Origin: Naegleria gruberi
Taxonomy: Eukaryota
DNA length: 64,000 nt
Assembly: GCA_000004985.1 (NCBI GenBank)
Contig: GG738846.1
Strand: one strand, 5' to 3'
Shown here: positions 1-44,683 of the stretch, piece after piece
How the letters are laid out: the number at the start of each line of letters is the position of its first letter
Position numbering within the stretch: the stretch's first letter is position 1
Made by a program: the position numbers and the translations under genes
The notes under the pieces: generated by a model
Database searches by the model: none
What the model saw: the letters and a program-made list of their open reading frames with translations, nothing else
Told to the model about the DNA's origin: nothing

Positions 1-1
1 A

Positions 2-458: not shown

Positions 459-1187
459 NNNNNNNNNNNNNNNNNNNNNNNNNNNNNNNNNNNNNNNNNN
501 NNNNNNNNNNNNNNNNNNNNNNNNNNNNNNNNNNNNNNNNNNNNNNNNNNNNNNNNNNNNNNNNNNNNNNNNNNNNNNNNNNNNNNNNNNNNNNNNNNNN
601 NNNNNNNNNNNNNNNNNNNNNNNNNNNNNNNNNNNNNNNNNNNNNNNNNNNNNNNNNNNNNNNNNNNNNNNNNNNNNNNNNNNNNNNNNNNNNNNNNNNN
701 NNNNNNNNNNNNNNNNNNNNNNNNNNNNNNNNNNNNNNNNNNNNNNNNNNNNNNNNNNNNNNNNNNNNNNNNNNNNNNNNNNNNNNNNNNNNNNNNNNNN
801 NNNNNNNNNNNNNNNNNNNNNNNNNNNNNNNNNNNNNNNNNNNNNNNNNNNNNNNNNNNNNNNNNNNNNNNNNNNNNNNNNNNNNNNNNNNNNNNNNNNN
901 NNNNNNNNNNNNNNNNNNNNNNNNNNNNNNNNNNNNNNNNNNNNNNNNNNNNNNNNNNNNNNNNNNNNNNNNNNNNNNNNNNNNNNNNNNNNNNNNNNNN
1001 NNNNNNNNNNNNNNNNNNNNNNNNNNNNNNNNNNNNNNNNNNNNNNNNNNNNNNNNNNNNNNNNNNNNNNNNNNNNNNNNNNNNNNNNNNNNNNNNNNNN
1101 NNNNNNNNNNNNNNNNNNNNNNNNNNNNNNNNNNNNNNNNNNNNNNNNNNNNNNNNNNNNNNNNNNNNNNNNNNNNNNNNNNNNNNN
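459..1187. other. Assembly gap (run of N's)
   Basis: 729 consecutive n characters. Confidence 0.98.
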
Positions 1188-1253
1188 AATTTGAGCATGT
1201 TGATCTCAGTATGCTATTGAGATATTATTTGTACTGAGTTGAATATTCCACAC

Positions 1254-3445: not shown

Positions 3446-6400
3446 TCAAGTAACCATTCTCTTTAATAAAGTAACAATATTATTTCTTAATAAAGAAGTA
3501 ACAGGGAAGAATGCACTTAAAAAAGCTGAAATGAATGCAACAGCAATGACAATTAAAATTAATTCCCATGGAACATAAACACTGACAGGTAGTTCAGTAA
3601 ATAAATTTGATTGAAGTGACATTGTAAAACCCAAAACAAAACCAATTACAATTCCAATTAAAGAAGCACTCAATACTAATACAAGTGCTTCATAAACATA
3701 TAATCTTTGTATGAAAAACTTTTTACATCCAATTGCTCTTAAAATTGCAATTTCTTTTGTTTGTTCTTGAATATTTGTATATAAAGAAGAAACTAAACTA
3801 AAGAAACACATAATCATTGATAATATAGTTACAAAATATAATAGGAAATTTGTAGCTTGAAGTGCAACATTAATTGTACCTAAATCATCATTTGCATCCT
3901 TAATAGATAATGATAAATATCTTAAATAGGAATTTAATTCCTTTTTAAATTTTGAAACTTGAGATTCTTGTGCATTCTTATTAATATCAATAAATAATCT
4001 TTCAATTGGAATTTCACTCATTGATTTAAATGTACCATTTGCAATTCTAAAATAGGATGGAAATGAAATGATAGCATGTTGAGCTGTTGTACTTGGAAAT
4101 GATGAAAATGTAAAAAATGGAGCATTTGTTAAAAAACACATTGGTCTCATTAATCTATAACTATAAATTGGATATTTTGGTGTTGGTGTTACAAATTCAA
4201 TTAATACTGTATCATTTTCCTTATTTGAAATTGATAATAAATCTTTAAATGTACCACCAAGTATTATATTTTCTGATCCTTTTTGAGTATATAATAATTC
4301 ACTAATAGTTTGTGGTGAATAGACATTTTCACCATTGGCTGTCATAAATATTGCACTCGATGGCCTTGTATGAAACATTAAAAAATAAGGATCCGTTACA
4401 GATATGAAATTAGGTGGTACAGCACGTATAGTTAATGTACCATAATTAAATTGACCTGGTGGATATATTTTCTGATCCTTATTATAGGGAGTATAATAAT
4501 GTATTGGATAGGTCATGTATGTAAAATCATTTACAATATTGGGTCTATAACTTTCAATAAATGATTCAATTTGTTGACTATAATCTTTCAAATCAAAGCT
4601 GTAATTATCTTTAATAATAATTCGAGTTCCAAAATCTTGTAAAATTTGATATTTAAAATTTGCTAATTGTAAATTAAATGCAATTGCAACAAAAATAACA
4701 AATCCCAATGACATGGCATACATGATTGTTGTTTTTCTATTACGTAAACGATGTGCAATTAGATTTTTTAAAATTAATTGTCTAATTGCAACACTTTCCC
4801 AAAATAGTAATATTGTTGTAAAGAATGTTTCAATCATATTTTCCAAATTAAGAGCTAATACAACTAAACCTAATAACATTCCTAATAATACAGCAAAAAA
4901 CATTGTTAATAAAAAGTTTAAATTTAAAGTTAATAAACTTAGAGGAAAGAAATAATAAACACAAAATCCAGAAATTACAATTAATCCAGGAATTACAACT
5001 AAACTTGTTGAAATTGAAGTTTCTGAATTTCTTTCAATTGAATATTCAACTGATTTTGTTTTACTTCTTTCTGTATCAAGTGAATCATGTAAATTTTGAC
5101 CTAATGCTGCTTTAATTGGTAATAAACTTGCTAATAATGGAATTAAAATACCTAAACAAATTGAAACTATAACTGATGTATAATCTAATAGACGTGAAAT
5201 TTCATTAGTTTCAAAAAAATAACTTAATAAATATGAAATTCCAATATAAATCATTCCACCTAAAAATAGACCAATTACTAAACCTGGAATTGAATATAAA
5301 AAAGCTTGTTGTATAATTAATTGTACAACTCCTTTTCTATGCATTCCAATCATTCTTAAAACACCAATTTCAAATGTTCTATTTTCAACATTAATCATTA
5401 ATAATGAATAAATTAATATTGTTGATAATATTGTTAATATTGTAATAATAATATTTATAATTAATCCTAAAAACATTGAAACAAATCTTAAATCATTTAA
5501 ATAAACTAAAATTGGATAATTTTGACTAATTTGATTAAATCCAATAAAATAAGAAATTGAAGAACCAAATTTAACAATCATTTCTTTAACTTGTGAAAAT
5601 TGTTGTAAATTATATTTTTGTATACGTGTTGGTGATAAATTAAAATATAAAATTGGTGAATATTCTCTTAAATTTAATTGTTCAATTTGTTTTTTAATTT
5701 CAAAATTATAATTTAAATTTAAATATTTTGTAATTGATTTTAAAAAATTATTATAATCAATAAAAATATAATTATTAACTGAATATTCCATTTTTCTATA
5801 ATTTGTTGATAAAATATCTTTAATTTTAAAAGGTGCATATGTTAAATATTCATTTTTATCAATTAAATCATTAAAATTATTATAATTTTTAATAATTGTA
5901 AAAATGGAAGAAACATTTACTTGTAATAAAATAAAATCATTAATTTTTAAATCTAAATTATCAGCCAATACTTGAGAAATGTAAATTTCATTCTCATTCA
6001 ATTTTACATCTTTATCAAATGATCTTCCAAATTCCATTCTCTTTTCACCTTCCAAATCAAGTATATAAATTGATGTTTTATAAAAAGATGAACAATATTT
6101 TGGAATACAATTACTTGTACATCCCAATGATGAAATATTATAAAACCATGATATTTTGGAATATTCTTCAATTGTTGATATATTAAAATGTAAATCATTA
6201 AATTGATTATTAAATTGACATGATTTTGTTGTAAAAACATTTCCACTCCATTGAATTCTAGGTGAAAAATAGGAATATTCCTTTTCATAATCATTTTTAC
6301 CAATTGCTTTTAATAAATTTGATTCAACTTGTGAAATGTTAAATAATAGTGTGGATGGTGAATTTGTATTTGGTGTTAAAACAATGTCAGATTCAAATTG

Positions 6401-7585
6401 TGTATTTTCTGCTAATCTTAAAAATATAATTGGAACTTGTTGAAGTACTGATAATGCAATACAAACTACAATTACAACTAATACACATGATCCAACTCCT
6501 AATAAATATGCTAATTTCCTTTTACGTATTTCTCTAAAATTATGTGAAAAATAGGTCATGTATAAAAATAGTAATGACATGATGAATTTTTTAATTTCTA
6601 TAAATGTTGGAAATTTAAAATTTCTAATTTTACTTTTTAAATGTGATAATTTTGAATAAATAATTTTACTTTTACCATTATTAGTATTATTATTAGAATT
6701 ATTATTAGAATTGGGTATATTATTATTATTAGAGGTAGAAGAAATAATTTGATGAGGTAAATTAGAATGATGATCATTCATTTGACTTCTATATGTTAAT
6801 TGAGAAGTTACTAGTGCTGATTCTCTTTTAAGAGAAATGTCTCTTGAATCATTCATTGTCGGTTGAGTATTAGTAGTAACATTGTTACTATTAATTGATG
6901 ATGAATGAACACCATGATCATGTTTTTTCAATTGTTGTTGTTGTTGTTGGTGATGATGAGGTAAATGTTGTTGAATAATCTTTTTTAATTCTTCATTTTC
7001 TAATTGTAATTGTTTTAGAATATCGAGAGGAGGTTGTTGTTGATCATGATGAGAATTATTGGTTGATGATGATGATGATGAAGAGGATGAGGTTGAAGTA
7101 TGACGATTTGATGTTGTATGAACATTTCCAGAGGCTATTGTTGGATGATGATGATTGTGAGCACCATCATATTCTTCTAATTCAATTTCTAATGTTGTTG
7201 ATGATGATTGTGATGATTTGGGACTGGTTGTGCTAGCACTATTTTGTTTTAATTGTTGATTCATCATCATGTGATTATTATTGCTACTAGTAGTGGTAGC
7301 GGAATTACTTGTATTATTACTTGTATGATGAGCAGTTGTTGCTGTTGCTGTTGTTTGAATGTGATGAGGAGGTTCTTCATCTTCTTGGTTATTATTGTTG
7401 ATTATTAAATTGGATGAACTAATATTGGATTCCGGAGTAGAATAATTGTCAATGAGTGAAGAAGTGGCTATTGTTACTCCTTCTTCTACATGTTGAACAG
7501 TGTTTTCCAATGATGGTTCAACTCCATTCGCAGATGGTTCAACTCCATGAAGTTGTTGTTGGTGTTGAGAACCTCTGTCCATCAT
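3446..7585 (-). CDS. Large membrane protein with two FtsX-type (MacB-like, DUF214) permease domains and a long N/S/Q/H-rich N-terminal low-complexity region
   Basis: There are two FtsX signatures: …FEIGVLRMIGMHRKGVVQLIIQQAFLYSIPGLVIGLFLG… and …EIAILRAIGCKKFFIQRLYVYEALVLVLSASLIGIVIGFVLG… Each is followed by TM helices. Single ORF of 1379 aa with an ATG at 7585. Confidence 0.7.
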   Translation of the reverse strand: MMDRGSQHQQQLHGVEPSANGVEPSLENTVQHVEEGVTIATSSLIDNYSTPESNISSSNLIINNNNQEDEEPPHHIQTTATATTAHHTSNNTSNSATTTSSNNNHMMMNQQLKQNSASTTSPKSSQSSSTTLEIELEEYDGAHNHHHPTIASGNVHTTSNRHTSTSSSSSSSSSTNNSHHDQQQPPLDILKQLQLENEELKKIIQQHLPHHHQQQQQQLKKHDHGVHSSSINSNNVTTNTQPTMNDSRDISLKRESALVTSQLTYRSQMNDHHSNLPHQIISSTSNNNNIPNSNNNSNNNTNNGKSKIIYSKLSHLKSKIRNFKFPTFIEIKKFIMSLLFLYMTYFSHNFREIRKRKLAYLLGVGSCVLVVIVVCIALSVLQQVPIIFLRLAENTQFESDIVLTPNTNSPSTLLFNISQVESNLLKAIGKNDYEKEYSYFSPRIQWSGNVFTTKSCQFNNQFNDLHFNISTIEEYSKISWFYNISSLGCTSNCIPKYCSSFYKTSIYILDLEGEKRMEFGRSFDKDVKLNENEIYISQVLADNLDLKINDFILLQVNVSSIFTIIKNYNNFNDLIDKNEYLTYAPFKIKDILSTNYRKMEYSVNNYIFIDYNNFLKSITKYLNLNYNFEIKKQIEQLNLREYSPILYFNLSPTRIQKYNLQQFSQVKEMIVKFGSSISYFIGFNQISQNYPILVYLNDLRFVSMFLGLIINIIITILTILSTILIYSLLMINVENRTFEIGVLRMIGMHRKGVVQLIIQQAFLYSIPGLVIGLFLGGMIYIGISYLLSYFFETNEISRLLDYTSVIVSICLGILIPLLASLLPIKAALGQNLHDSLDTERSKTKSVEYSIERNSETSISTSLVVIPGLIVISGFCVYYFFPLSLLTLNLNFLLTMFFAVLLGMLLGLVVLALNLENMIETFFTTILLFWESVAIRQLILKNLIAHRLRNRKTTIMYAMSLGFVIFVAIAFNLQLANFKYQILQDFGTRIIIKDNYSFDLKDYSQQIESFIESYRPNIVNDFTYMTYPIHYYTPYNKDQKIYPPGQFNYGTLTIRAVPPNFISVTDPYFLMFHTRPSSAIFMTANGENVYSPQTISELLYTQKGSENIILGGTFKDLLSISNKENDTVLIEFVTPTPKYPIYSYRLMRPMCFLTNAPFFTFSSFPSTTAQHAIISFPSYFRIANGTFKSMSEIPIERLFIDINKNAQESQVSKFKKELNSYLRYLSLSIKDANDDLGTINVALQATNFLLYFVTILSMIMCFFSLVSSLYTNIQEQTKEIAILRAIGCKKFFIQRLYVYEALVLVLSASLIGIVIGFVLGFTMSLQSNLFTELPVSVYVPWELILIVIAVAFISAFLSAFFPVTSLLRNNIVTLLKRMVT

Positions 7586-16740: not shown

Positions 16741-19700
16741 TTACTTTTGACTCATCAAGTCCAAGTGAATATTTTCCAATTTTGTTAACATTTCCTCTCT
16801 CATATCTTTGGATATGAATTTCATTTCAACTTCAATGGCTGGTGGAGTTGTTCTTGATTGTTCTTCATCTTCCAAAGTCATTGATAAACCATCCTTATCT
16901 AAATCTGCTGCCTTTCTTCTAATTCTTGCATGTTTCAAACTAAAGATGTAAACCTTCTTACCCTTCATTGCACCCTTCTTCTTTAAAATTGCATAATCAG
17001 ATAAGATGTGAAATGACATTTGATAAGGTGCCTTATTCTTAGTTGCCTCAACTCTTCTCTTCTCATAAATGTAACCACGAACTTTCTTTTCAGTGTGGAT
17101 CCATTTTCTTTCTGAATTTTCTGGAAGTGTAATTTGTAACTTTTCCAATAATTTTGAAGCCATGGCCATAAATTCAACACCTCTCTTGGCTTCATTGACG
17201 AAACCTGTAATATTTTGAACTTCACCAAGAGCTCTCTTTAAAATTTTATAACCTGTTGAATTGGTATTATCACTATTCTTCATTAAATCAGTTAAAAGAA
17301 GATTGTAACGTGGCAATCTTTGAACAGGTTGCTAAAATATATTTGTATAATATGTATATAGAGAGAGGGAGAGAAAGATAAATATTGATAAGAAAATAGT
17401 AAAAAAATAATGTTAAGAATTTTGAATAATTAAAAACTTACAATTAAGAATGAACCCAAGTCAGTTTGACGATATCCCAAATCAAGTAATTCATTTGAAA
17501 CTTGATCTAAGAAATCAGCAAATGGTTTGTACTGCTTAATACATGAAAACATCATTGCTTCAGCTCTATCATAATTATTAACAAATGAACAATAGGTCTT
17601 GAATGAAGGAGCATATGATAAAACTAATTCACCAATACGATATTCCATATTTTGCATTAATTCATCTTCATTTTCAAAGAGTGCTTTAAGTTTTTGAAGG
17701 AATGCATAATTGACCTTATAAATCAAATCAATATCTTTGAAAATAACATTAAATTTGTCTTTTGGAATAATTTGCTTTGGAGCAGTGACAATTCGTTCCA
17801 TGTAGAATTTTCTGGTAGCATCGAGAGCACCAACGTAACTGTCCTCAGTACTAAGCAATTCCTTAGAGATGGCCTTTCTCTTGATTAATCTCTTTTCCTT
17901 CTTCTTTTCTTCTTCTTCATCTTCCTTTTGCTTTTCTTTGAGTTCTTCAACTCTTTTGAGTTTTCTTTGAAGTCTTCTTTCTGCTTTGAGTTTTTCCTTT
18001 TCTTCGTTTTTCTTTCTCTCTGCTTCGTACTTTCTTCTGTCTTCCTCTTCTTCCTTTTCTTTGAGTTTTTCCAATTCAGCTTGTAATTCCAATTCTTCAT
18101 CGAGAACTGAAGCTTGTAATTCATCATCAGAGTCAGTTTCTGGTTCCAATTCTTGAGGTTCGAGATCATCATCCTCTGGCTCCAACTCTTCTGGTTCCAA
18201 TTCTCCTGGCTCCAACTCTTCTGGCTCCAATTCACCATCCAATTCTTCTGGTTCCAATTCAGATGCCTCCAAATCATCATCACCACCTGCAGTGGCAGTT
18301 CCAACTTTGGTTTCTTGATCTTCCTCATCAGAATCATCATCCTCTTCATCATCATAGTCATCCTCAGAATTGGTATCATCATCATCAGAATCATCATCAA
18401 AGCTTGCAAGTTTGAACATTTGATTATTATCAAAGTTAACATCATCTGCGAATGAATTATTATCTTCATCGAGAGCTTGTCTAATTTCATCTTCTGAAGC
18501 ACCATTATTCTTCATGTTGAGAATTCTATCACAATTAGACAAGTCAATTAATTCAATCATATCTGTCATGTAACCCATAGCTCCATCAATGGCATCAATG
18601 TAATCTCTAATTTCATCAACCTTATATAAATTGTACAATGTTTCACATGCATTCTTTCTAATTTCATAATTTTGACGTGTGGCTTCCTTCATAATAACTC
18701 CTAATAAGGCATCTACAACACCTGTTTCTTTCAGTTCAATGGCAGAATTCTTTGTTCTTGCAAAATTGGAGAAGAGTTTCAAGAGAGCCATCAAGATTTG
18801 AATTTCAACTTGTCCAACCTCCTTAATATCCAACATTTGGAAGAAACGATCAAAAACTTGAGAACAAATTGAAGCAAAATTAATTTCACTCAATCTTTCC
18901 AATAATGTACTCGAATTACCAATATAAACACAAATAGCAACTGCATGGAGAACTAATTTAACACTCTCCTCTTGTTTGATAAATGAAATGAGAGTGGAGA
19001 GAACTTTTCTTGAAGCCAATTTAACAAGAACACCTGGATCTCTAACAAGATTAGAAAGTGCACCAGTTGCTGGTTCTAAAATTTGTAAATATTCACTTTC
19101 CATTAATGAAATTAGAATATCTGGAATTTCAGATTTAACAAATGCTGCAATATTTTCTTCAACTTCAGTTGCTTCCCATAACATTTCACATGCCTTCTTT
19201 TGTTTGGCAGGAGTATTTGATTTCAAATCTTGAATTGTACCTCCAATTGTATCTTCTTTCAAAAATGGATTTCCACCTTGTGTTCCAATCAAATTAGAAA
19301 GTCCTAAAATATGAAGAACTTTCATTGAACTTTGTGAAGCATCTGGAAAAGTAGAATCAAATGTTTGAATTAATTGTGCTAAAAGTGCAGGAACACCACT
19401 TTGAATCATAGTTTTATGATTGGCAGGTGAAAAGTGACATAAATATTGAAATAATTGAATGGCTGATTTTACAAGACGTTGAGTTCCAGCATTTTGAGCA
19501 TTTTGTGCTTCTTTTTGAAGATTTTCATCTGATAAAATGTTTTTAATTGAAGAAATTCCACCCAAAGTTGTTCCTACAAGAAATGCCAATTCAGTATCAT
19601 CTTTTTTAAATTCATTACATTACAATATTATAAAAACATGACATTACAATAATATTACATATTAATAATATTAATAATTAATAATATTGTTTAAAAGAGA

Positions 19701-20605: not shown

Positions 20606-21952
20606 ATGAAGAATAGAGAAATTATTTCAATTCATATAGGACAAGCAGGTTCTCAAATCGGAAATACTTGTTGGGAATTATATTGTTTAGAACATGGTAT
20701 TGATCATACGACAGGTATTCAATCTTTGCCACAAAGCTCATCTGATTATTCTATTGAACAGTATCAAAGATCATTCTTTTCCGAAACAAAAAATGGAAAT
20801 TGGAAGGCAAGAGCTTTATTTGTTGATTTGGATTCTGAATGTATTGATAAGATCAGAATGAAAAACAACTCAATGTATGAGAGGGAAAGTTTGTTGAGCG
20901 GTAATGAGAATGCAGGCAATAATTTTGCTATTGGAAGAGGAGTTGGAGGAAGTTTAGTGTTAGAAAATTGTTTGGAAAGAATTAGGAATATGGTAGAAAA
21001 ATGTGAAGCACTTGAGGGTTTCTTAATTACTTCATCACTGAATGGAGGAACTGGATCAGGTTTTAGAGATGCATTGCTGGAGAGACTGTCATCAGAGTTT
21101 GACAAGAAGCTTAAATTGAGTTTTGATGTTATAGGTGCACCAAGTTCTGTATCTTCATGTGTGGAGCCGTATAATGTTCTATTAGGATGGAATTCAATTC
21201 GTGAATATTCAGATGTTTCAGTAATATTGGAAAATGAAGCATTGATTGATATTTGTAAAAACAAGCTACAACTTGAGCAGCCAAAGATGACAGATTTGAA
21301 CGAAATCATTGCCCATACAATATCATCGACAACAGTTCATTTGAGGAAGGAAGGTTGTTTACACGTATCCATTTCTGAAATCATGAACAATCTCATCCCG
21401 TACCCTAGTGTAAAATATCTAATCCATTCAATGAGTAATATTTTCCCAAAGAATCATGTTTTCAATGAACGACCAAATGTTACTGAGTTGACAAGGAGTT
21501 GCTTTTTAGACAAACATTCAGTGTTGGCGAATTGTAATTTACTGGAAGGTCAATACATGGCTTGTGTTGTTCTATATAAAGGAGACATAGTTCCAAAAGA
21601 TGTTGGACATGCCATTTCCACTATTAAGACCTCAAGAGTAATTAGATTTGTTGATTGGTGTCCAACTGGATTCAGATGTGGAATTGACTATAGCCCACCA
21701 TTGACCATTCCTGGAGGAAACATTTGCTCAATGGATAGAAATGCCCATGTTTTTGCCAACTCAACCAGTATTAGCCAAACATTTACCAGAATGGGGCAAA
21801 ATTTTGATAAACTATTCTCTGAAAAGCCATTCCTTCACTGGTACCTTAAAGAAGGAGCACAAGAAGAAGAATTTACGCAATGCAGAGAGGAACTTAGAAC
21901 CCTTCAACAAGACTATTTAGAAGTTGTACAGGTTGGTGAGGAAGAAATTTAG
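20606..21952 (+). CDS. Divergent alpha-tubulin-like protein, 448 aa, single exon
   Basis: The N-terminus MKNREIISIHIGQAGSQIGNTCWELYCLEHGI resembles alpha-tubulin MREVISIHVGQAGxQIGNACWELYCLEHGI. The glycine loop is NGGTGSG rather than GGGTGSG. The T7 region …NLIPYP… and MACVVLYKGDIVPKDV match alpha MACCLLYRGDVVPKDV, and VDWCPTGF is present. Overall identity to alpha-tubulin is only about 40% by eye. There is no acidic EEY tail; the protein ends …VGEEEI. The ATG is at 20606 (the ORF track started at a GTG). Confidence 0.8.
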   Translation: MKNREIISIHIGQAGSQIGNTCWELYCLEHGIDHTTGIQSLPQSSSDYSIEQYQRSFFSETKNGNWKARALFVDLDSECIDKIRMKNNSMYERESLLSGNENAGNNFAIGRGVGGSLVLENCLERIRNMVEKCEALEGFLITSSLNGGTGSGFRDALLERLSSEFDKKLKLSFDVIGAPSSVSSCVEPYNVLLGWNSIREYSDVSVILENEALIDICKNKLQLEQPKMTDLNEIIAHTISSTTVHLRKEGCLHVSISEIMNNLIPYPSVKYLIHSMSNIFPKNHVFNERPNVTELTRSCFLDKHSVLANCNLLEGQYMACVVLYKGDIVPKDVGHAISTIKTSRVIRFVDWCPTGFRCGIDYSPPLTIPGGNICSMDRNAHVFANSTSISQTFTRMGQNFDKLFSEKPFLHWYLKEGAQEEEFTQCREELRTLQQDYLEVVQVGEEEI

Positions 21953-22060: not shown

Positions 22061-23986
22061 CTATTGTTTAAACACTTTAGAAATTAATGCAATACTAATT
22101 GGTAAAGTGAAGGCAGCAATAGTTGGCCATAAACTGCTACTTTTAGATTTAGTTGTTGATTTCGATTCAGAAGTAGTAACACGAGTAGTTGGAAGAGTTT
22201 TACCAAACGAAAGTGTCTTTCCAGATTCAGCTTCTGTTAAGGCATGATCTAGACAGTCAATTAAGAATTGAGCATCTTCTACTGTGAGGCAGACTGGACC
22301 CTTAATTCTGAGAACATTTCTTAATGGACCACCTGAACCAACTAAAACTCCCAATTCTTTAGTTCTTTCCCAAATAAATTTGGTTTCATCTTGAGCTGGT
22401 GTAAGATCACCAGAGTGAGCATCTTTAACCAATTCAACTCCAAGGAAGAGACCTTTACCACGAACTTCACCAATCAATTTGTGATATTTCATGAGATTAG
22501 TAAGTCCATCCTTTAAATATGTTCCAACTTCCAGACTGTTTTGTTGTAAATTTTCTTGATCTATTACTTCAATAACTGATAATCCAATAGCACAACTAAC
22601 TGGATTACCACCAAAAGTATTGAAATATTGAGAATTATTGAAAGCTTCAGCAATCTTTCTTGTTGTGACAACACAACCAAGTGGTTGACCGTTACCAAAT
22701 GGTTTACCCATTGTAACAATATCAGGAACAACTTGATCATGTTCAAAAGCCCAGAAATGTGAACCAATACGTCCAAAACCAGTTTGAACTTCATCAGCAA
22801 TACAGATACCACCACTACTCTTAACTTTTTCATAAACTTGTTGAAGATAACCAGGTGGGAAAACAAATTGACCACCAACACCTTGAATACTTTCGTGAAT
22901 GAATGCAGCAATATCATGATCATTTTCTCCTTTGGCTCTCTTTTCATAAGCACCATCAATATCCTTGATATATTCAGAAACAGCTGTTTCCTTTTGATAT
23001 GGACCTCTCATTAAATCTGGAACTCTAATATATTCCACATCCTTTGCATAATAATCCCAATCAGGACATTTGGCTGATGTACCAGTTGAAATTGAAGATG
23101 AAACACCTGTACATGTTCCTGTAGTTCCATGATATGAATTTTCAAGAGCAACAACTGTATTTCTCGATGTATAGACACGAGCCAAACGAATTGCCAAATC
23201 ATTAGCTTCACTTCCAGAGTTTACAAAGAAGCAAACATTCAAATCTGAATCCTTTGGCATTTTGGATGTTAATTTATCGGCCAATTTAACAATCTTGTCA
23301 TGTAAATAACGAGTATTCGAATTGATGCACATTAATTGTTCAGTAGCAGCTTTAGTAACATGTGGATGAGCATAACCAACTGTTATTCATCATTTCATCC
23401 GAATATATTGTAGCATATTTTAAATATTTTCATCATCATCATGCAATTATTATTATTATTATCAGTATCGGTGGATACCAGCATTCAAATAGGATATGCA
23501 ATTTAATGAATATTTCACACAATAATAAGTAGTAGTAGTTAGATACATTCACACAATCACCAAATTAATATAAGTTGGCCAAGTTCAAAAAACGTTCCAA
23601 TTTTTGAATATTCAAAAATTCATAATTTTGAACCATCATCACATGATTATCATAAAGATTAAAAGGTGAAATTAACCCAAATAGTACAATTATTACAGCA
23701 GCATCAGACAAGTAAGATTAAATTAGTACTCCTAGAATCAAAGGCTCCAACTAATTAACTACTTACCATGAGCAACATTTGCATAACAATCCAAATATTT
23801 CTTTCCACTCTCATCCCAAGCATATTGACGTTCTCCCTTGACCAACATGATTGGTTTCTGATAGAATGTATATTGTGCCTTGGCAAGGAATTTACTTCTA
23901 TCTTGAATCACTTGATCCTTCGAGAGTGTATGAGTCAGTGGATTGTATGTTAATTCGGGTTGTTGTGTATTGTCGTATGAAGCCAT
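22061..23986 (-). CDS. Class-III (PLP) aminotransferase of the AGXT2 / AGXT2-like phospho-lyase type. Two exons: 23986..23765 and 23379..22061.
   Basis: Exon 1 …KYLDCYANVAH and exon 2 GYAHPHVTKAATEQLMCINSNTRYLHD join across a 385-nt intron (GTAAGT…AG). Family motifs FFVNSGSEANDLA, ADEVQTGFGRIGSHFWAFE and TMGKPFGNGQPLG (PLP lysine) are present. There is an unusual hydrophobic C-terminal tail, …LWPTIAAFTLPISIALISKVFKQ. Confidence 0.8.
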
Positions 23987-26626: not shown

Positions 26627-26716
26627 TTTTTTATTCAACAAAATTTCACTGTTTTATTTGAATAATTTATTTACAACTTTAGGGTTTAAATGTGGAATAA
26701 AAAGAGATGGTTCGAA

Positions 26717-28251
26717 TTATTGATAATGGTGATCAGAAGGGCTGCTATAGTCATCATTACCTGTTGTTGAATTAGCAGACTCAGAAAGGAGAATGGAAGA
26801 ATTAGATGAGCTAGATGGTTTCTTGTTGATGGTGTCCAACAATTTAATGATAAGACCTTGTACTTCATTGTTATCACTGTTGGATCCAGAATCCCTCTGG
26901 TAATTGTTATTATTATTTCCACCACGATTGTAATTATTTGATCTATTATTGTTATTTCCACGACGATCATCATCTCTTCTATCATTTCTATTGCTGTTAT
27001 TACCACCTCTATCATTTCTACTATTGTTATTTCTATTATTATTGTTATTGTATGAGGATCTATTGTCTCTATTTCCGTAATTTCCTCCTTGATTTGCAGG
27101 TCTATTGTTGTTGTAATTTTGAGAAGGTTGTTGAGGTGGATTATATCCGAAAGATAATCCTGGAATATTGAGAGAAGGTTGAGGAGTGCTTGTTGGAGGA
27201 ACAACAGGATATTGCATTGAATATTGTTGGTAGACATTAGATACTGGAACAGGAGGTGGAGGAGCATTAAGAATAAACGAACAGATATCAGTAATCATTG
27301 TATCAGCGAAACCTAATATAATGTCAGAATATTATTTCAGATTTTGAAAAACTTACCTGGAGAAGTACCATCAGGCATAAGAGCCTTAAATGACACGATA
27401 TTCCTAGCTATTTCATGTCTTGCCACTATGTAAATGACGAATCTTTCATTGGATACCAATTGAAGGAATTGTGGAGATGTAAAGAACAATTCCCCTTGAT
27501 TGGTATTACGAATGTGAACGTTATGATAGATAAGACCTCCAGATTTAAGAGTTTGCATAACAAAGTTTGCAAATGGTTCCAAAGTTTGATCTGGAATATA
27601 GATTGGAACAGATGTGACACCAGAAGAATTAGTTGAATAAGGAGACGAAGTTGGCATCATTGTAGTAGAAGGCATTTGAAGAGGAGGTTGTGAATTTCGT
27701 GGTGGTGTTCTCTTTTGCTTCTTATTCTTATTGTCTCGGTCCCCTCTACTATAACGATCATTCTTAGAATCACCACTATTATTGAAATTACTACTATTAT
27801 TACGAGATGGTGGTTGTTGGCGATCTCTACTATCGAGTTTTCTCTTATTACTATTCACATTCTTTTGCGAATTATTTGGACCTTTGGCCATTTGTACATC
27901 AATGCGTTTAGAACATAATTGTGTTCCAGAAAGAGTTGCAATAGCCTTTGAACAGGCTTGCTCGCTTTCGAATTGAATAAAAGCATAACCTGGATGAAGA
28001 CGAATTTCATCCACAATCTTACCGCACTTTGAAAAGGCATCATATAGTTGTTCTTTGGTTGTTCCAAAGTCTAGATTGCCTGCGAAAATACGATGACGAA
28101 GTCCACTGGCAGAATCTACACTATCAGTATTATCATTATTAAATGTTCCTGAATGTTTGTGATTAACGGGTGATGATGGTTTATTATTACCATCAAAGCT
28201 TACGTTATTACTATTACTTGATGAATTATTAGCTTCTTCGTGGCTGCTCAT
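26717..28251 (-). CDS. RRM-containing RNA-binding protein with an N/R/G-rich low-complexity C-terminus. Two exons: 28251..27357 and 27312..26717.
   Basis: The RRM has RNP1-like and RNP2-like elements: RIFAGNLDFGTTKEQLYDAFSKCGKIVDEIRLHPGYAFIQFESEQACSKAIATLSG. The 44-nt intron is at 27313-27356 (GTAAGT…AG) and is in frame. The C-terminus is rich in N, R and G, with runs of NNNRNNNSRNDRGG. Confidence 0.65.
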
Positions 28252-35274: not shown

Positions 35275-38200
35275 TTATTCCAAAACCAAACTAATTCCTC
35301 TTTCAGAACAAACTTTGTGTAAACTATCAATTTCTTTCCATCCAATGAGAACCAATTTCTTTAAGGAAGGTGTGTTGTTCTTATTCTTCAACCAATCTAT
35401 CAAAACATTAACGCCAATAGATTGAGGAGATCCACTCAATGTCAAACACTTGATCTTTTTGTTATTTCTCAAATTCTGAATAATTAATGAAAATTCTATC
35501 GAGTCAATAAATTGGTCACATCCTGTGAAATTCAAACTGGCTGGTGTCTTTTTGATTGCTTTCAAAAAGTCTTCCTTTTGATCATCTTCAATAATATATG
35601 AACCAGCTTGTTTGAAATATTGTATCAATTCAAATGTTTCATCAGTTGTAATAACTCCCAAATCATCAATAAGATCTTCGAAAATATCAGATGCAGAATA
35701 TAATAATTCATTATCTGCTGCTGACAATCTTGGAGTAACAAATGTTGAGTTTGGAGGAGAGTTCACTTTTGGTGTGGTTGGACTTCTTGGAGGACCTGTG
35801 CTGCTAATAAATGATCTTCTGTGTCTTCTAGGAGAGCTTGTATTTGCACTATTGAAAACTGTATCTGCTACCTTATTTGTAAAGTTATTTGGATCAAAGT
35901 GGAATCTTGAGCTTCTTGGAGTTGGAGATAATAATCTGGCTGACATTGGTGGCTCATCATTATTTCCTCTTCTCGAAAGAGCAGAGAAGAAGATTTCCTT
36001 AGTAATGGTAGGGACTGATTCATTGTGATTTTTCTTCACATCTTGAGTATTGATGGTGGAAGGAATTTCCACTTCCTTGTTCATTTGTTGTTGAGGAGTA
36101 TTTGGATTTGAATTGACAATTGCTGCACGAAGTTTTGAATCTGAAAGTTTAAAGTTATTGATTGGACTTGGATGTTGATACATTCTTTCAACACTGGTTG
36201 GAGTTGATGGACTGCTGTATCCTTCTGATTTGTCAATCATGGCAATCTTTTCCTTAAATCTATTCAGTTCATCCTTATTGTTTCCTGAGGCTGATAGTGG
36301 TGTGGCAACAGTAGTTGTGTTTTCACCAGTAGAGAATTTGAGTTTTCCATTCTTTTCCAACTCTTCAAAGAAGAGTTTTAACATGGCATAGAGTGATTTG
36401 GTGTTTCCCTTTTCAATTTCATCGTGAATATAGGAAAATCTTTGGGTATTCTTTGCAATTTTGTGAACAGCTTGAATAAAAGCTTGATGGTTATCATTCT
36501 TTTGGAATTTGTTTGGATTATTCTTATATTTGATAACCTTTCCATAGTATTTCTCCACAATCATGCAAAGTACAGTTCCGTCATCTATAATTTTGTGCAA
36601 TGAATGGCCTTCATCAGGTCTATCTGTAATTTGAAGAATAGTTTCCTTGAAATACTTTTCTTCATCCTCTTCTAACATCTTTTGAGAACTTGTAGCTTTT
36701 TGATAGTAGTGTGTTCTACTAGACATCATTCCTTCAATATTTGCTTGCCTATCTGTAATGGATCCGTCAGAATTTTCTGAAGGAGTACTTGGTGGAATAA
36801 TTGGAGCCTTAGAGAAGGACATGCTTCCAAAGCTTTTTGTTCTGGCACTCAACATTGGTCGAGATGGAGATTCCAATGGAAGGAAGATTGAGTGTGATTG
36901 AAGTTTTTTCAAGGATTGAGTTCTAATTTCAGGCTGGGCTGCACATTTAACAGAAAACTCAAAAAGTAGTGCCAAATTACTGACAATACAGTTTCTTTCC
37001 TTTACAGAGCTATGTTCTGGTTCAGTTGATGCCTTTAGTAGATAGTCATGTTCAAATACAGTTGAGATACCAACATTTTTACAGAAATTGGTGTAAAGAG
37101 AAACATTTCCAATAGCAGCTTGGTTATTTGTCATACCTTCAACATATTTCTTACATGGTTCAATCTCAGGGAACAAAGTATTAGCATATTTGCACAAAAT
37201 TACTCCGTCCAATAAATTCTTGAAAAGTGAAATAGATGTGTCATATTCATTTCCAGCTAATTTCAGAAGCCATTTTGAAAGAGCTTTCTCTGCGTATTCA
37301 AGTTCTTGACTGCGGAAATCTTCCTTACTTTCAGCATTGAGCTTCTTTCCTGTTCTTAATAAACTAAAAATCGATTTTCCTCTCATCTTTTCATAAGTTT
37401 CTTCGCTAAACTCAAAGCCAGCTTCTTCCATCAACTTCATAAACTTCCAAGTTGGATCATGTTCCTTTGGTGGCAATTCTTTCTTTGGGGTTTTTGGAGT
37501 TTGTGGAGGTTCTTCAGTCTTGACAGGTGGTGGTTTGACTTTTAATAGAGCTAACTTTTTAGTCAATTCTTCTACTCTTCTCAAATGGGAGTTCATCTTT
37601 CCTTCATAGATATTTCCAAGTGATGTACTCATTTCATTCAATTTCTCTATTACTAGATTTTCAGTGTTAGACTGGAATGTAGAAACAAAAGTATTGAAAA
37701 ATGAGTAATCGAGAGGGAAAAGTTCTTTCAACTCAATGTACTTTTTCTTTACATCACTTAATTGAGAATGAACATTTTGGATAGACTTGGTAAGATCTAG
37801 GATTTTTTGCTGGTATTCCTTGGTGATTTCTTCTTTCTCATTTTGAAGTGTTTGATTAGAAGTTTGGAGAGCTTCAATATCTTGCTTTAGTTTCAGCTCT
37901 CGTGTTTTCAAATTTTTGATCTCATTATCGAGCTGGTTGTTATCTGAATCTATGCGATTTTTAAGTTGTTCAACCTCTTCATTCTTGGCACTCAGTTCAT
38001 TTTCAAGTTTTTCGTTGGTGGACTTTTCTTTTTCTAAGGCAGAGCTAGTTTGATCAACCAGTTTTTCAGCTTCTGCAAATTTCTGCTTTAAGTCTTTGAT
38101 AGATAGATCAAGTTTGTGTGATTTTTCTTCTTGTCTATTTTTTTCTTCTTTCACTAGATCGAGTTGCTCCTTGTATGAGTTTTCTATATTCTTGGCTTGT

Positions 38201-41200
38201 TCGACTAATAGCTGATTTGTTTTGTTAAGAGCATCGATTTCAGTTTGCTTTGAGTCGTTTTCACGTTTCATTTGCTGAATATTGGACTCGAGATTTCTTT
38301 GAGTTTCCTGAGATTCTCTAGCTAATGATTCATAAGCGGTCTTTTGTTGCTGTTGTTTATCCTCTACGTCTTGGAGTTGAATGTTCAATTCTTCAAGTTG
38401 TGTTTTAGTCTGGGAAATGTGGTTGTCCATCTTTGCTTTTTCTTCTTCCATTATTGCTATCTTTTCTGCTTGTTGATTGGCTTTTTCTGATAGTGATTTG
38501 TTCTTTTCAGACAAGTCTTTAACCTCCCTTTCCTTAGATGAAATATCATCTTCAAGTTTGGACTTCTCCTTGTTGATTGTTTCCTTATCTTCTTCTAGTT
38601 CTTTAACACGCTTGTTTCTCTTTGTTAAGTCTTCTGATAATTGTTGGAGTTCTTCAGTTGCATTCTTAAAGTCTTTGGACAATTTGTTACTTTCTTGTTC
38701 TAATTTTTCAATTTCAGATTCTTTTGAATTCAATTTCTCCTTGAAACTGTCTTTGGCTTGATCCAAGAGCTCTGATAGCTCTTTTTCTTTAGAGGAAGCT
38801 TTTTGAAGGGAGGCTTGTAACTCTTCTTCTCTTTCTTTAAGATTCTTAATTTCCTTTTCTAGACTCTTGTTGACAGTTTCAAACTTTTCAATATCAGCTT
38901 GGAGCAATACTTGTGTTTGCTTTGTTTCTGAAACAGTATTATTGAGTCTAATCTTTTCTTCTTCAATAAGGTTCTTCAAGGATTCATTTTCTTTTTCAAG
39001 CTTTTCAATCTTTTCCTTCAAACCAGACTCTAAATTGTGACAGTTTGTTTCACAATCGTTTAGCTTTCCATTTTTAACAGAGAGTTCATGCTTCAATTGT
39101 TGAATTTCCTCTTCTAACTTGGTAACATTGAGAGTAGAATTTTGAAGGTTATTGGTTAAGGATCTTTCTTTTTCTTTCAATTTCTCTAATTGTTCTAGAA
39201 GATCAGCAATCTTTTCCTCTGCGCCTTTCTTTTCCTTCCTCAAATTTTGAATAGTATTCTCATGTTCTTCAATTTTATGTTCCATATTTTCTTGTAGCGC
39301 TTTCTTTTCTGATTTAAGGTTGGTTATATCATTCGAAAGTTGTGAAATTTCTTCAGAAAGTTCTTCCTTGTTCTTTTTGATTTGTTGAACTGATTTGTTA
39401 AGGGTTTCTATTTCTATTTCTGCTAATTTCTGATTAGATTTGAACTCTGCCAATTGGTTGTGCAAATTATCTAATTCCTTGCTCTTCTTTTCTAGTTTTT
39501 CTGTTTCATCAGCAAGTAATTTTTCCTTTGTCAGTAGAGTATTTTGTAATTTTTCGTTTTCATGTTTCAATTGGGTATTGTTTTCAGCAACTTCTTGCTC
39601 CTTTTCTTTGCTGAATCCCAAATTTTCTTCTAAATTTTTGTGGGTGCGTCTTTCATTTTCGAGATTGTTCTGGATTTCAACAAGCTTGAGCTCAGTTTCT
39701 TGTAATTTTTGATTTTCAGATATGATCTCATCTTGATGCTTCTTTTGCATATTTGCCATGCCAACTTCCATATCTTGTAGTTGGTTTTGAACTTTCTTCA
39801 TCTCTCTTTCCTTAGACGAAATATCATCTTCAAGTTTGGACTTTTCCTTGTTGATTGTTTCCTTATCTTCTTCTAGTTCTTTAACACGCTTGTTTCTCTT
39901 TGTTAAGTCTTCTGATAATTGTTGGAGTTCTTCAGTTGCATTCTTAAAATCTTTGGACAACTTGTTATTTTCTTTTTCTAATTTTTCAATTTCAGATTCT
40001 TTTGAATTCAGCTTCTCCTTGTACTCTGTAACAACATTTAAGTTACCAGCCTCTGCTTTTTGTAATTCTGTTGAAAGTTTGGAAATTTCCCTTTCTAATT
40101 CTGCTACCTTTTGGCTATTAATTGCATGTTTGCTTTCCTCTTCCTTCAATTTATGTTCATACTGTTTACTTAGTTGATCCAATCTCAAAGAATCATTCTT
40201 TGTCTCCATTAATGCCGATTCTTGTTCAAATTTGTCTTGTTTAAGCTGCTTGATATCTTGTTGAAGTTTGGAAATGGTTTTCTCTAGTTCTTCAATATTC
40301 AGTTTATGTTCTCCTAGCTCCAAATCTTTTTCTGATAATTTTTTAGCTGACAATTTGCCCTTTTCTGTCAAGTCTTGTAAATTCTGTTCTAACAGGGTCT
40401 TGGCAGATTCTAACTCGAAAATCTTTTTTCTTTGTTCAGTCGATATTTTATCACAGTCGGTCTCAAGTTCATTAATTTCTTTTAACTTGTTTTTCAACTT
40501 CTCTCTTGAAGATTCCAACTCATCTTCCAATTGATTCTTTCCTTGCTCAAGTGAATGAATTTGTTTCTTCAAATCGTGTTCGTTTTGAGATTGTTCTTTT
40601 TCTAAAGTTTTCATTTTTTGCATCAATTCATCAACCTCTTGTTGTTTTGCAAGCTTCAATTCATCTAGTTGTTTCTTGAGAAGAATACAATTTTCACAAT
40701 TTGCCTTTTCTGCCAATTTGAGTGTTATATCCTCTATTTCTTTTGTTAATTGTTTGACTTGGTCTTTTAGATTGTTATTTTCGTGTTGTGAATCAGTGTG
40801 TTCAAAATTCTTGAGTTGTGAAATGTAGTTTCCAATTTGAATTTGATAGTCATTTTCGAGTTCTTCAAGCTTTTTCTTTGTTTCTCTCTTTTGGTCATCA
40901 ATCTTGGACATTAATTTGTTCTCAGATTCTTTTAGGTCTGAATTTTCCTTGACAAGATGGTCTAATTTATCTTGTAGCTTCTTCTTTTCGTGATCAACCT
41001 CTTCCTTCAAGTCTGACAACTTGTGTTCAGATGTGATAATCCTAGCACTTAGTTGTTGAATCTCATTATTCTTCTTTCTAATTTCCTCTATGTGAGCTGT
41101 GTCCTTTGCACTGGTCAAGTCTGAGAATTTTGAAATTTCATCTTCCAGATTCTTAATTCTCTTTTCTCTTTCTTGTACAGTGTGTTCCAGTTTCTTTCTA

Positions 41201-44661: not shown

Positions 44662-44683
44662 CTGAAGTGAAGATTCCGAATAT

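What the first reader, a model, noticed from the sequence alone, without database searches (positions are those of the whole stretch)
20606..21952. Strongly divergent alpha-tubulin-like paralogue
The protein is clearly alpha-derived. It keeps the N-terminal IGQAG…CWELYCLEHGI motif, the catalytic-loop context MACVVLYKGDIVPKDV, and VDWCPTGF. It nevertheless differs from canonical alpha-tubulin over most of its length. The glycine-rich GTP loop reads NGGTGSG, the H3 and M-loop regions are rewritten, and there is no acidic C-terminal tail or terminal Tyr. It may be a lineage-specific cryptic tubulin, for example one specialised for basal bodies or mitosis, rather than the housekeeping alpha-tubulin.
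Basis: partly seen in the sequence, partly recalled or inferred. Interest (0 to 1): 0.6.

Follow-up and report, generated by a model that had tools for sequence, protein, structure and literature searches.

The report
Divergent Naegleria alpha-tubulin paralogue, already annotated
This is an intact gene for a very divergent alpha-tubulin of the amoeboflagellate Naegleria gruberi; it is already annotated and counted among that genome's extra divergent tubulins, it is not one of the known mitotic-spindle tubulins, and its function has never been tested.

Summary
Window 20606-21952 (+) is one intact 448-codon ORF with full-length Tubulin and Tubulin_C domains. It is 100% identical to Naegleria gruberi XP_002682585.1 / EFC49841.1 / D2UYU9, annotated "alpha-tubulin".

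It belongs to the alpha family. It is 42-45% identical to canonical alphas, about 30% to betas and 26% to gamma. A neighbour-joining tree places it in the alpha clade in 100% of bootstraps. It keeps GQAG, the catalytic Glu254 equivalent and the alpha-only S9-S10 insertion.

It is not one of the two published mitotic alpha-tubulins (JGI 58607 and 55745). It is 38-40% identical to them, groups with them in 1% of bootstraps, and their qPCR primers are absent from the window.

Its only close relative in 5.8 billion proteins is a second N. gruberi gene (XP_002670562.1, 67% identical). The same database does hold N. fowleri, Willaertia and environmental orthologues of the mitotic alpha.

About half of the alpha-invariant positions are altered. 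The elements that make lateral lattice contacts are rewritten, Lys40 is absent and the tail is short.

The gene class is already known as the extra highly divergent ("bonus") tubulins of the 2010 genome paper, Velle 2022 and Fulton 2022. No expression or localisation data could be found. The basal-body-or-mitosis idea is only partly supported. Interest is low to moderate.

The parts
20606..21952 (+). Single-exon CDS (448 aa plus TAG stop) of a divergent alpha-tubulin paralogue, identical to N. gruberi XP_002682585.1 / EFC49841.1 / D2UYU9
   Evidence: ORF listing and translation. 100% identity over 100% of the length to the annotated protein. Pfam Tubulin plus Tubulin_C. It is the only tubulin-like locus in the window by tblastn.
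20639..20650 (+). T1 loop GQAG (aa 12-15). This is the alpha-type form; beta-tubulins have GQCG
   Evidence: Alignment with alpha and beta references.
20702..20773 (+). H1-S2 loop, rewritten and 3 aa longer than in human TUBA1A. No Lys at the position of the acetylated Lys40
   Evidence: 24% identity to flagellar alpha in this region, and Gln at the Lys40 column. Model confidence is low here.
20900..20950 (+). T3 loop and start of H3: GNENAGNN-FAIGRGVGG in place of GKEDAANN-YARGHYTIG. Asn101 is kept. Asp98 becomes Asn, and the near-universal GHYT becomes GRGV
   Evidence: The same changes occur in the paralogue P0004. This is the lowest-confidence stretch of the AF2 model, residues 103-111.
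21041..21061 (+). T4 phosphate-binding signature NGGTGSG (canonical form GGGTGSG). Asn replaces the first Gly in both paralogues
21281..21301 (+). H6-H7 loop and start of H7, PKMTDLN. The guanine-stacking Tyr224 is replaced by Met; Asn228 is kept
21353..21406 (+). T7 loop and H8, GCLHVSISEIMNNLIPYP. The catalytic Glu254 equivalent (Glu258) is kept, which marks alpha (beta has Lys). Asp251 becomes Ser
21431..21481 (+). M-loop region (lateral lattice contact), almost completely rewritten
   Evidence: 7% identity to flagellar alpha and 38% between the two paralogues.
21707..21730 (+). Alpha-specific 8-residue insertion in the S9-S10 loop, IPGGNICS (canonical VPGGDLAK). Beta-tubulins lack it
   Evidence: The alignment shows an 8-column gap in the betas only.
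21932..21949 (+). Shortened C-terminal tail VGEEEI, net charge -3, no terminal Tyr

Best explanation
The locus is an intact, single-exon gene of Naegleria gruberi. It encodes a fast-evolving alpha-tubulin paralogue that is restricted to this lineage in the data available.

It is one of the extra highly divergent tubulins that Fulton called "bonus" tubulins. It is distinct from both the flagellar and the mitotic alpha-tubulins. By inference it is probably JGI model 45327 on scaffold_2, and its sister XP_002670562.1 is probably JGI 60961.

Shown here:
- alpha-family membership
- a complete predicted tubulin fold
- retention of most nucleotide-pocket residues, of the alpha catalytic Glu and of the alpha-only S9-S10 insertion
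- heavy rewriting of the elements that make lateral lattice contacts

Inferred:
- The protein still folds and binds GTP.
- It most likely pairs head-to-tail with a beta-type partner, perhaps one of the genome's divergent betas.
- It is not a bulk lattice subunit of axonemal or spindle microtubules. It would serve a minor, specialised or regulatory role, or it is drifting under weak constraint.
For: Identity:
- 100% match to XP_002682585.1 / EFC49841.1 / D2UYU9, named "alpha-tubulin [Naegleria gruberi]".

Family:
- Pfam Tubulin plus Tubulin_C.
- The top 60 solved-structure matches are all alpha, with E about 1e-133.
- phmmer scores are 406-450 bits to canonical alphas, 353-380 to mitotic alphas, 227-249 to betas and 167 to gamma.
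- In 500 neighbour-joining bootstraps, the pair falls in the alpha clade in 100% and with the mitotic clade in 1%.
- GQAG, the Glu254 equivalent and the S9-S10 insertion are kept.

Fold:
- The AF2 model has pLDDT 82 and pTM 0.87.
- Foldseek's top PDB matches are tubulin entries (chains labelled A or C, the usual alpha chains): TM 0.89-0.92, rmsd about 2.2 A, 42-44% identity.

Not the mitotic genes:
- 38-40% identity to 58607 and 55745.
- Their published qPCR primers are absent from the window.

Lineage restriction:
- The only relative above 46% identity is P0004, at 67-68%.
- As a positive control, the same database returns N. fowleri, N. pringsheimi, Willaertia magna and environmental orthologues of mitotic alpha 58607 at 70-97% identity.

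Constraint:
- The ORF is intact (P about 1e-16 by chance). Forty alpha-invariant columns are replaced by the same new residue in both paralogues.
- H3, S7, S2/H2 and S6/H6 are 80-90% identical between the paralogues although only 18-53% identical to flagellar alpha.
- Paralogue identity is higher at alpha-invariant columns than at variable ones (74.5% against 63.3%, Fisher p = 0.016).

Altered lattice elements:
- Identity to flagellar alpha is 7% in the M-loop, 17% in the H2-S3 loop and 24% in the H1-S2 loop.
- Lys40 is absent and the tail carries a net charge of -3.

Literature:
- The genome holds 13 alpha and 9 beta genes, "some highly divergent" (PMC9036621).
Against: - No expression, proteomic or localisation data for this gene could be found. 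Function is therefore pure inference.
- Several residues that are near-invariant in polymerising tubulins are changed in both paralogues: Gly142 to Asn, Tyr224 to Met, Asp251 to Ser, Asp98 to Asn, and GHYT to GRGV. GTP binding or GTPase activation may be impaired.
- Only 97 of 184 alpha-invariant columns are kept in both paralogues. No orthologue is seen in other heteroloboseans. Both points also fit relaxed selection.
- No beta-like partner gene lies in the window.
- The link to JGI model 45327 rests on scaffold sizes and branch lengths, not on a sequence match.
- dN/dS could not be computed because the paralogue's DNA was not retrievable.
Confidence: 0.6

Rival explanations
1. It is one of Naegleria's mitotic-spindle alpha-tubulins (the alpha6 type of Chung 2002 and Velle 2022).
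For: - It is a divergent alpha in an organism known to use divergent alphas for mitosis (PMC9036621).
- Like the mitotic alphas, it lacks Lys40 and a C-terminal Tyr.
Against: - The mitotic alphas are JGI 58607 and 55745 (PMC9036621). They are 57.5% and 60.1% identical to human TUBA1A in the alignment (57-58% to TUBA1B per Velle); this protein is 42%.
- This protein is 38-40% identical to the mitotic alphas.
- It groups with the mitotic clade in 1% of bootstraps.
- The published qPCR primers for both mitotic genes are absent from the window.
- The mitotic alphas have N. fowleri and Willaertia orthologues at 70-90% identity; this protein has none.
Confidence: 0.03
2. It is a redundant duplicate evolving under relaxed or no selection. 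On this reading it is an intact but functionless or nearly functionless gene on its way to becoming a pseudogene.
For: - It is restricted to one species in the available data.
- 47% of alpha-invariant columns are altered in at least one paralogue, including Tyr224, Asp251, Gly142 and GHYT.
- The paralogues differ from each other by 33%.
- The candidate JGI model names (fgeneshHS / fgeneshNG) lack the estExt prefix carried by the flagellar and mitotic models, which may reflect missing EST support. This is weak, because both the ID assignment and the reading of the prefix are inferences.
- Fulton doubts that such tubulins assemble into microtubules (PMC9081340).
Against: - The 448-codon ORF is intact in 33% GC DNA, with no frameshift despite 55% divergence from its nearest canonical relatives.
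- Both paralogues are full length with few indels.
- Forty invariant columns are replaced by the same new residue in both paralogues, and H3, S7, S2 and S6 are 80-90% conserved between them.
- Conservation between the paralogues is enriched at alpha-invariant sites (p = 0.016).
- The AF2 model is confident and complete.
Confidence: 0.25
3. [quoted passage not shown]
For: - It is slightly closer to the flagellar alphas (44-45% identity) than to the mitotic alphas (38-40%).
- Fulton raises this possibility for the "bonus" tubulins (PMC9081340).
Against: - No expression data could be found.
- Basal bodies and axonemes are conserved in N. fowleri and Willaertia, which lack a detectable orthologue.
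- Lys40, which is typical of stable ciliary microtubules, is absent.
Confidence: 0.1
4. It belongs to a non-alpha tubulin family (gamma, delta, epsilon, zeta or eta, or a new family) and only resembles alpha superficially.
For: - At 42-45%, its identity to alpha is about as low as the identity between alpha and beta (39-41% for the mitotic alphas against the betas).
- In my tree its position at the base of the alpha clade is unresolved: 50% of bootstraps place it outside canonical plus mitotic alphas and 48% place it with the canonical alphas.
Against: - All best matches are alpha.
- Scores to beta and gamma are far lower.
- It falls in the alpha clade in 100% of bootstraps with gamma as outgroup.
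- The alpha-only S9-S10 insertion, GQAG and Glu254 are present.
- N. gruberi has separate conserved gamma, delta and epsilon genes (PMC9081340).
Confidence: 0.02

Closest known systems
N. gruberi XP_002670562.1 / EFC37818.1 / D2VZB7 (P0004; probably JGI 60961), annotated alpha-tubulin
   Same: - 67% identical over the full length.
- Shares NGGTGSG, Tyr224 to Met, Asp251 to Ser, GNEN in T3, GRGV in H3, absence of Lys40 and a short acidic tail.
- Groups with this protein in 100% of bootstraps.
   Different: - 443 aa against 448 aa.
- Starts with the canonical MREI, not MKNREI.
- Keeps Asn249 but has Arg for Trp407 and Ala for Thr349.
- The M-loop and H1-S2 loop differ (38% and 34% identity).
- Lies on a different scaffold (233 kb contig).
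Naegleria flagellar (canonical) alpha-tubulins, JGI 56236 and 53284
   Same: - Same family and fold.
- Highest identity among the reference sequences compared (44-45%).
- N-terminal S1/T1/H1 is 82% identical, and S9 is 71% identical.
   Different: - The flagellar alphas are 79-85% identical to human alpha (PMC9036621); this protein is 42%.
- They keep Lys40, GGGTGSG, Tyr224, Asp251, a canonical M-loop and a 14-16 residue tail with net charge -8.
Naegleria mitotic alpha-tubulins (alpha6 type; JGI 58607 and 55745; Chung 2002, Velle 2022)
   Same: - Also divergent alpha paralogues.
- Also lack Lys40 and a terminal Tyr.
- Also come as a non-identical pair in N. gruberi (PMC9036621).
   Different: - Only 38-40% identical to this protein, and a separate clade.
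- The mitotic alphas keep GGGTGSG, Tyr224, Asp251 and GHYT.
- They are conserved in N. fowleri, Willaertia and Acrasis.
- They have demonstrated expression in growing and mitotic amoebae (PMC9036621).
The other "bonus" highly divergent N. gruberi tubulins (for example JGI 65597, 71268, 72133, 51830, 88206, 88213) and long-branch alpha-like tubulins of ciliates such as Stentor and Paramecium
   Same: - Lineage-specific, long-branch, alpha-labelled tubulins of unknown function.
- They were included in the full tubulin tree of Velle et al., but the main text discusses only the flagellate and mitotic clades.
   Different: - If the ID assignment is right, this pair is the least divergent of the set. 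Its terminal branches are about 0.26-0.36 and its stem 0.65, against terminal branches of 0.5-2.6 and stems up to 1.24 for the others.
- In that tree it sits on the alpha side, next to divergent Stentor alphas. That pairing may be long-branch attraction.

Membership tests
Tubulin/FtsZ superfamily | Tubulin GTPase domain plus Tubulin C-terminal domain, with a complete tubulin fold | tested here: met
   PF00091 at 1.2e-49 (profile 1-190 of 190) and PF03953 at 2.3e-26 (profile 1-124 of 126). AF2 model pLDDT 82, pTM 0.87. TM 0.89-0.92 to solved tubulin chains.
Alpha-tubulin | Closer to alpha than to beta or gamma by score and identity | tested here: met
   42-45% identity to canonical alphas, 29-31.5% to betas, 26% to gamma. 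phmmer gives 406-450 bits to canonical alphas, 227-249 to betas and 167 to gamma.
Alpha-tubulin | Falls in the alpha clade in a rooted tree | tested here: met
   Neighbour-joining tree with gamma as outgroup, 500 bootstraps: alpha clade including the pair in 100%. Delta, epsilon, zeta and eta were not included. No maximum-likelihood tree was run here.
Alpha-tubulin | Alpha-specific 8-residue insertion in the S9-S10 loop (human residues about 361-368) | tested here: met
   IPGGNICS aligns to VPGGDLAK. The betas have an 8-column gap there.
Alpha-tubulin | Catalytic T7/H8 residues Asp251 and Glu254, which activate GTP hydrolysis on the adjacent beta subunit | tested here: inconclusive
   Glu254 is kept (beta has Lys). 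Asp251 is Ser in both paralogues, and Asn249 is His in this protein. The roles of these residues are taken from my own knowledge of tubulin biochemistry.
Alpha-tubulin | Tubulin signature [SAG]-G-G-T-G-[SA]-G in the T4 loop (PROSITE pattern, quoted from memory) | tested here: not met
   The loop reads N-G-G-T-G-S-G in both paralogues. Only the first, variable position departs from the pattern; the other six match.
Alpha-tubulin | Residues of the nucleotide pocket (N-site): Gln11, Ala12, Gln15, Asp69, Glu71, Asp98, Asn101, Ser140, Gly143-Gly146, Thr179, Glu183, Asn206, Tyr224, Asn228 | tested here: inconclusive
   Most are identical. Conservative changes are Glu71 to Asp and Thr179 to Ser. Non-conservative changes are Asp98 to Asn and Tyr224 to Met. 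Actual GTP binding cannot be tested with these tools.
Canonical (lattice-forming) alpha-tubulin | High conservation (canonical alphas are generally at least about 70% identical to one another; Fulton, PMC9081340), including the M-loop, H1-S2 loop, H2-S3 loop and H3 lateral contacts | tested here: not met
   42-45% identity overall. M-loop 7%, H2-S3 loop 17%, H1-S2 loop 24% and H3 32% identity to flagellar alpha.
Canonical (lattice-forming) alpha-tubulin | Lys40 acetylation site and a long acidic C-terminal tail | tested here: not met
   Gln at the Lys40 column. The tail is VGEEEI, net charge -3. The absence of a terminal EY is shared by all Naegleria alphas (PMC9036621).
Naegleria mitotic alpha-tubulin clade (alpha6 type) | Falls in the clade of JGI 58607, JGI 55745, N. 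fowleri g5134 and g7486; conserved across Heterolobosea; expressed in amoebae and in mitosis | tested here: not met
   1% bootstrap with that clade and 38-40% identity. The qPCR primers are absent. No heterolobosean orthologues were found. Expression was not tested.

The most novel reading that the evidence does not exclude
The XP_002682585 / XP_002670562 pair could be a functional third class of Naegleria alpha-tubulin. On this reading its lateral-contact surfaces were remodelled to a new state that both paralogues conserve: H3, S7, S2 and S6 are 80-90% identical between them. It would pair with a dedicated divergent beta to build a polymer that is not a microtubule, or to cap or regulate microtubules. 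That would be a recent, species-level invention of a new tubulin function.
Probability: 0.2. Interest if true: 0.55.

Novelty: already known. Interest (0 to 1): 0.22.

Why it matters
Naegleria is the organism behind the multi-tubulin hypothesis. Its flagellar and mitotic tubulins are encoded by separate genes, and both sets have been studied closely. The extra highly divergent tubulins, of which this gene is one, are the part of that story nobody has examined. Fulton (2022) lists their function as an open question.

If this pair proved to be expressed and functional, it would show how far an alpha-tubulin can drift and still be used. About half of its invariant positions are changed, and its lateral contacts are rewritten. 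If it proved to be silent, it would be an example of tubulin gene birth and decay. As a scan finding, however, it rediscovers an annotated gene.

Tried and rejected
- **First AF2 run.** A 34-sequence alignment gave pLDDT 47, which is uninformative. A 69-sequence alignment that added the mitotic-type alphas gave pLDDT 82.
- **Paralogue DNA.** `look-up of encoding contigs` returned nothing for either paralogue. No paralogue DNA means no dN/dS. I used protein-level conservation contrasts instead.
- **Searches by identifier.** Searching papers for the accessions and for the inferred JGI and locus-tag IDs found nothing relevant.
- **Papers and supplements not held.** The supplements of the 2024 transcriptome preprint are not held. 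Fritz-Laylin & Cande 2010 is not held, and a search did not turn up the 2010 genome paper. The microarray, the RNA-seq values and Figure S4B could therefore not be checked.
- **Velle alignment.** The copy of the Velle alignment (Data S1) that is held is truncated, and the quoted motifs were not found in it. The assignment to JGI 45327 therefore remains an inference. It rests on the 1.0 Mb and 233 kb contig sizes and on the branch lengths of the pair 60961 (scaffold_70) and 45327 (scaffold_2). The alternative pair (72133 and Contig_6773) was rejected because Contig_6773 is 1314 nt, which matches neither protein, and because its branches are too long.
- **Mitotic alpha identity.** Considered and rejected.
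- **Partner or second tubulin gene nearby.** None found.
- **First bootstrap attempt.** Biopython's support mapping returned no values after re-rooting. I redid the bootstraps with explicit bipartition counting.
Full report
**Observation**

Window 20606-21952 on the + strand is a single uninterrupted ORF. The ATG is at 20606 and the TAG stop at 21950-21952, giving 448 aa. With this base composition, the chance of 448 stop-free codons is about 1e-16.

Pfam matches the Tubulin GTPase domain (1.2e-49) and the Tubulin C-terminal domain (2.3e-26) over essentially the full profiles. The 60 best solved-structure matches are all alpha-tubulin chains, with E about 1e-133, aligned over residues 4-440 with few gaps.

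Three details need correcting:
- MACVVLYKGDIVPKDV is the S8/H10 region, not the catalytic loop.
- A short acidic tail does exist (VGEEEI).
- The missing terminal Tyr is common to all Naegleria alpha-tubulins (PMC9036621).

**Whose gene it is**

The protein is 100% identical over its full length to XP_002682585.1 / EFC49841.1 / UniProt D2UYU9. That record is named "alpha-tubulin [Naegleria gruberi]" and lies on a 1.0 Mb scaffold. The window is therefore N. gruberi nuclear DNA, which fits its roughly 30% GC content.

The flanking genes are unrelated to tubulin:
- an ARM-repeat RhoGEF upstream, on the opposite strand
- a class-III aminotransferase converging downstream
- a double-AAA ATPase further on

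A tblastn search with alpha, beta and gamma queries finds no second tubulin locus in the window.

**Family placement**

I built a MAFFT alignment with reference alpha and beta sequences taken from the supplements of Velle et al.. I added human gamma-tubulin, whose sequence I checked against PDB chain 7qj0_U.

| Compared with | Identity | phmmer bits |
|---|---|---|
| Canonical alphas (best: N. gruberi flagellar 53284, 45.1%) | 42-45% | 406-450 |
| Four Naegleria mitotic alphas | 38-40% | 353-380 |
| Betas | 29-31.5% | 227-249 |
| Human gamma | 26% | 167 |

(Identities; bit scores.)

In 500 neighbour-joining bootstraps:
- The protein and its paralogue P0004 group together in 100%.
- They fall inside the alpha clade in 100%.
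- They join the mitotic clade in 1%.
- Whether they branch below all other alphas or beside the canonical ones is unresolved (50% against 48%).

Three alpha-diagnostic characters are present:
- GQAG in the T1 loop (beta has GQCG)
- Glu at the Glu254 position (beta has Lys)
- the 8-residue S9-S10 insertion, which betas lack

An AF2 model built from a 69-sequence alignment is confident (pLDDT 82, pTM 0.87). It superposes on solved tubulin chains at TM 0.89-0.92 and about 2.2 A rmsd.

**Not the mitotic tubulin**

Naegleria is known for using divergent tubulins in mitosis, so this was the obvious identification. It fails.

- The mitotic alphas are JGI 58607 and 55745. They are 57-58% identical to human alpha (PMC9036621; reproduced as 57.5% and 60.1%).
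- Their sequences are clearly different from this protein.
- Their qPCR primers are absent from the window, even allowing 3 mismatches.

**What is already known**

Fulton's 2022 review says the 2010 genome paper listed, beyond the flagellar and mitotic sets, seven "bonus" highly divergent alphas and five betas. [quoted passage not shown] He also asks whether they are specific to basal bodies, axoneme parts or the flagellate cytoskeleton (PMC9081340).

The full and pruned trees of Velle et al. contain several long-branch N. gruberi alpha entries. One is a pair, 60961 (scaffold_70) and 45327 (fgeneshHS_pg.scaffold_2000003). Its branches are 0.26 and 0.36 on a stem of 0.65, and it sits on the alpha side of the tree.

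This protein lies on a 1.0 Mb scaffold and P0004 on a 233 kb scaffold. The two differ by 33%. I therefore infer, without having verified it, that this gene is JGI 45327. The other candidate pair includes a 1314-nt contig that matches neither protein's length.

I found no paper that mentions the accessions or these IDs, and no expression data that I could read.

**Distribution**

Among 5.8 billion proteins clustered at 90% identity, the only hit above 46% identity is P0004, at 66% in that search's BLASTP table and 67% in my alignment. P0004 is XP_002670562.1, 443 aa. A word-index-free HMMER scan of 1.84 billion cluster representatives agrees.

As a control I queried the same database with mitotic alpha 58607. 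It returned:
- N. pringsheimi alpha6 at 97% identity
- N. fowleri at 86% and 74%
- Willaertia magna at 70%
- a dozen or so unnamed metagenome and SRA-derived sequences at 63-86%, taken here to be environmental orthologues

Those genomes are therefore represented, and they lack a recognisable orthologue of this gene. In the tree of Velle et al., N. fowleri contributes only 6 tubulins against 26 for N. gruberi. The pair looks specific to N. gruberi, or it has been lost elsewhere.

**Anatomy of the divergence**

I examined 184 columns that are invariant across ten canonical and mitotic alphas:

| State in the two paralogues | Columns |
|---|---|
| Kept in both | 97 |
| Changed to the same new residue in both | 40 |
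| Kept in only one | 26 |
| Changed differently | 21 |

Changes shared by both paralogues:
- Gly142 to Asn, giving NGGTGSG
- Tyr224 to Met
- Asp251 to Ser
- Asp98 to Asn
- Glu71 to Asp
- Asp205 to Glu
- GHYT to GRGV at the start of H3
- loss of Lys40
- a shortened tail

Residues kept: Gln11, Asn101, Ser140, Gly143-Gly148, Glu183, Asn186, Asn206, Asn228, Glu254, Trp21, and most acidic residues of H12.

Identity by region:

| Region | To flagellar alpha | Between the two paralogues |
|---|---|---|
| S1/T1/H1 | 82% | 89% |
| S4/T4 | 65% | 90% |
| S9 | 71% | 71% |
| M-loop | 7% | 38% |
| H2-S3 loop | 17% | 55% |
| S7 | 18% | 82% |
| H1-S2 loop | 24% | 34% |
| H3 | 32% | 80% |
| S2/H2 | 41% | 88% |
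| S6/H6 | 53% | 89% |

H3, S7, S2/H2 and S6/H6 are thus far from canonical alpha yet well conserved between the paralogues. Overall, identity between the paralogues is higher at alpha-invariant columns than at variable ones (74.5% against 63.3%, p = 0.016).

This pattern suggests a burst of change before the duplication, followed by some retained constraint. It does not look like uniform decay. The evidence is modest, and dN/dS could not be computed.

**How it most likely works**

Shown:
- It is an alpha-family protein with a complete predicted tubulin fold.
- Its nucleotide pocket is largely intact.
- It keeps the alpha catalytic Glu.

Inferred from established tubulin structure-function knowledge: the T1-T6 loops bind nucleotide, T7/H8 of alpha activates the GTPase of beta, and the M-loop, H1-S2 loop, H2-S3 loop and H3 make lateral contacts. 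On that basis:
- The protein probably still binds GTP and forms a head-to-tail dimer with a beta-type partner.
- Its rewritten lateral surface, missing Lys40 and short tail make it an unlikely bulk subunit of axonemal or spindle lattices.
- It may be a minor, specialised or regulatory subunit, perhaps paired with one of the divergent betas. Alternatively it may be a weakly constrained duplicate.

I give the identity and family claims about 0.95. I give the functional sketch about 0.4-0.5. The relaxed-selection rival gets about 0.25.

**Verdict**

It is not the mitotic tubulin, the basal-body idea is untested, and the gene is not cryptic. It is an annotated gene that belongs to a set already reported and discussed in the literature. 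It is therefore already known as an entity, and only its function remains open. Interest is low to moderate.

Noticed in passing
window 35275-44703 (-): A single 3,142-aa ORF rich in Lys, Glu, Leu and Ser that looks like a giant coiled-coil protein. It has no Pfam match at 1e-5. It accounts for the strong AT skew (-0.3 to -0.4) across 38-44 kb.
   Followed up: partly
window 3446-7585 (-): A 1,379-aa ORF with two FtsX-like permease stretches (PF02687, 1.5e-31). This is a bacterial-type MacB/FtsX membrane domain in a eukaryotic genome and may reflect horizontal transfer.
   Followed up: no
window 17430-19589 (-): An ORF with armadillo repeats, a long acidic stretch of ELEPEE-type repeats and a RhoGEF domain. 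The domain is cut off at the end of the ORF (profile positions 2-136 of 180), so the gene probably continues past an intron. It points away from the tubulin gene.
   Followed up: no
window 22061-23332 (-): A class-III aminotransferase gene (PF00202, 1.8e-75) converges on the tubulin gene. Only 108 bp separate the two stop codons, which leaves little room for the two 3' UTRs.
   Followed up: no
window 1-2000: Extremely AT-rich DNA (GC 0.158, against about 0.30-0.35 elsewhere in the window). If the gene really is model 3 of scaffold_2, this may be a scaffold end or a gene-poor or repeat region.
   Followed up: no
window 20900-20950 (aa 99-115 of the tubulin): The T3 loop and start of H3 (GNENAGNNFAIGRGVGG) is the least confident part of an otherwise confident AF2 model, with pLDDT below 50 at residues 103-111. 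The near-universal GHYT motif is replaced here by GRGV in both paralogues.
   Followed up: partly
window 26686-27298 (-): Two overlapping 193-aa ORFs on the same strand in different frames (26686-27267 and 26717-27298). This suggests low-complexity or repetitive sequence.
   Followed up: no
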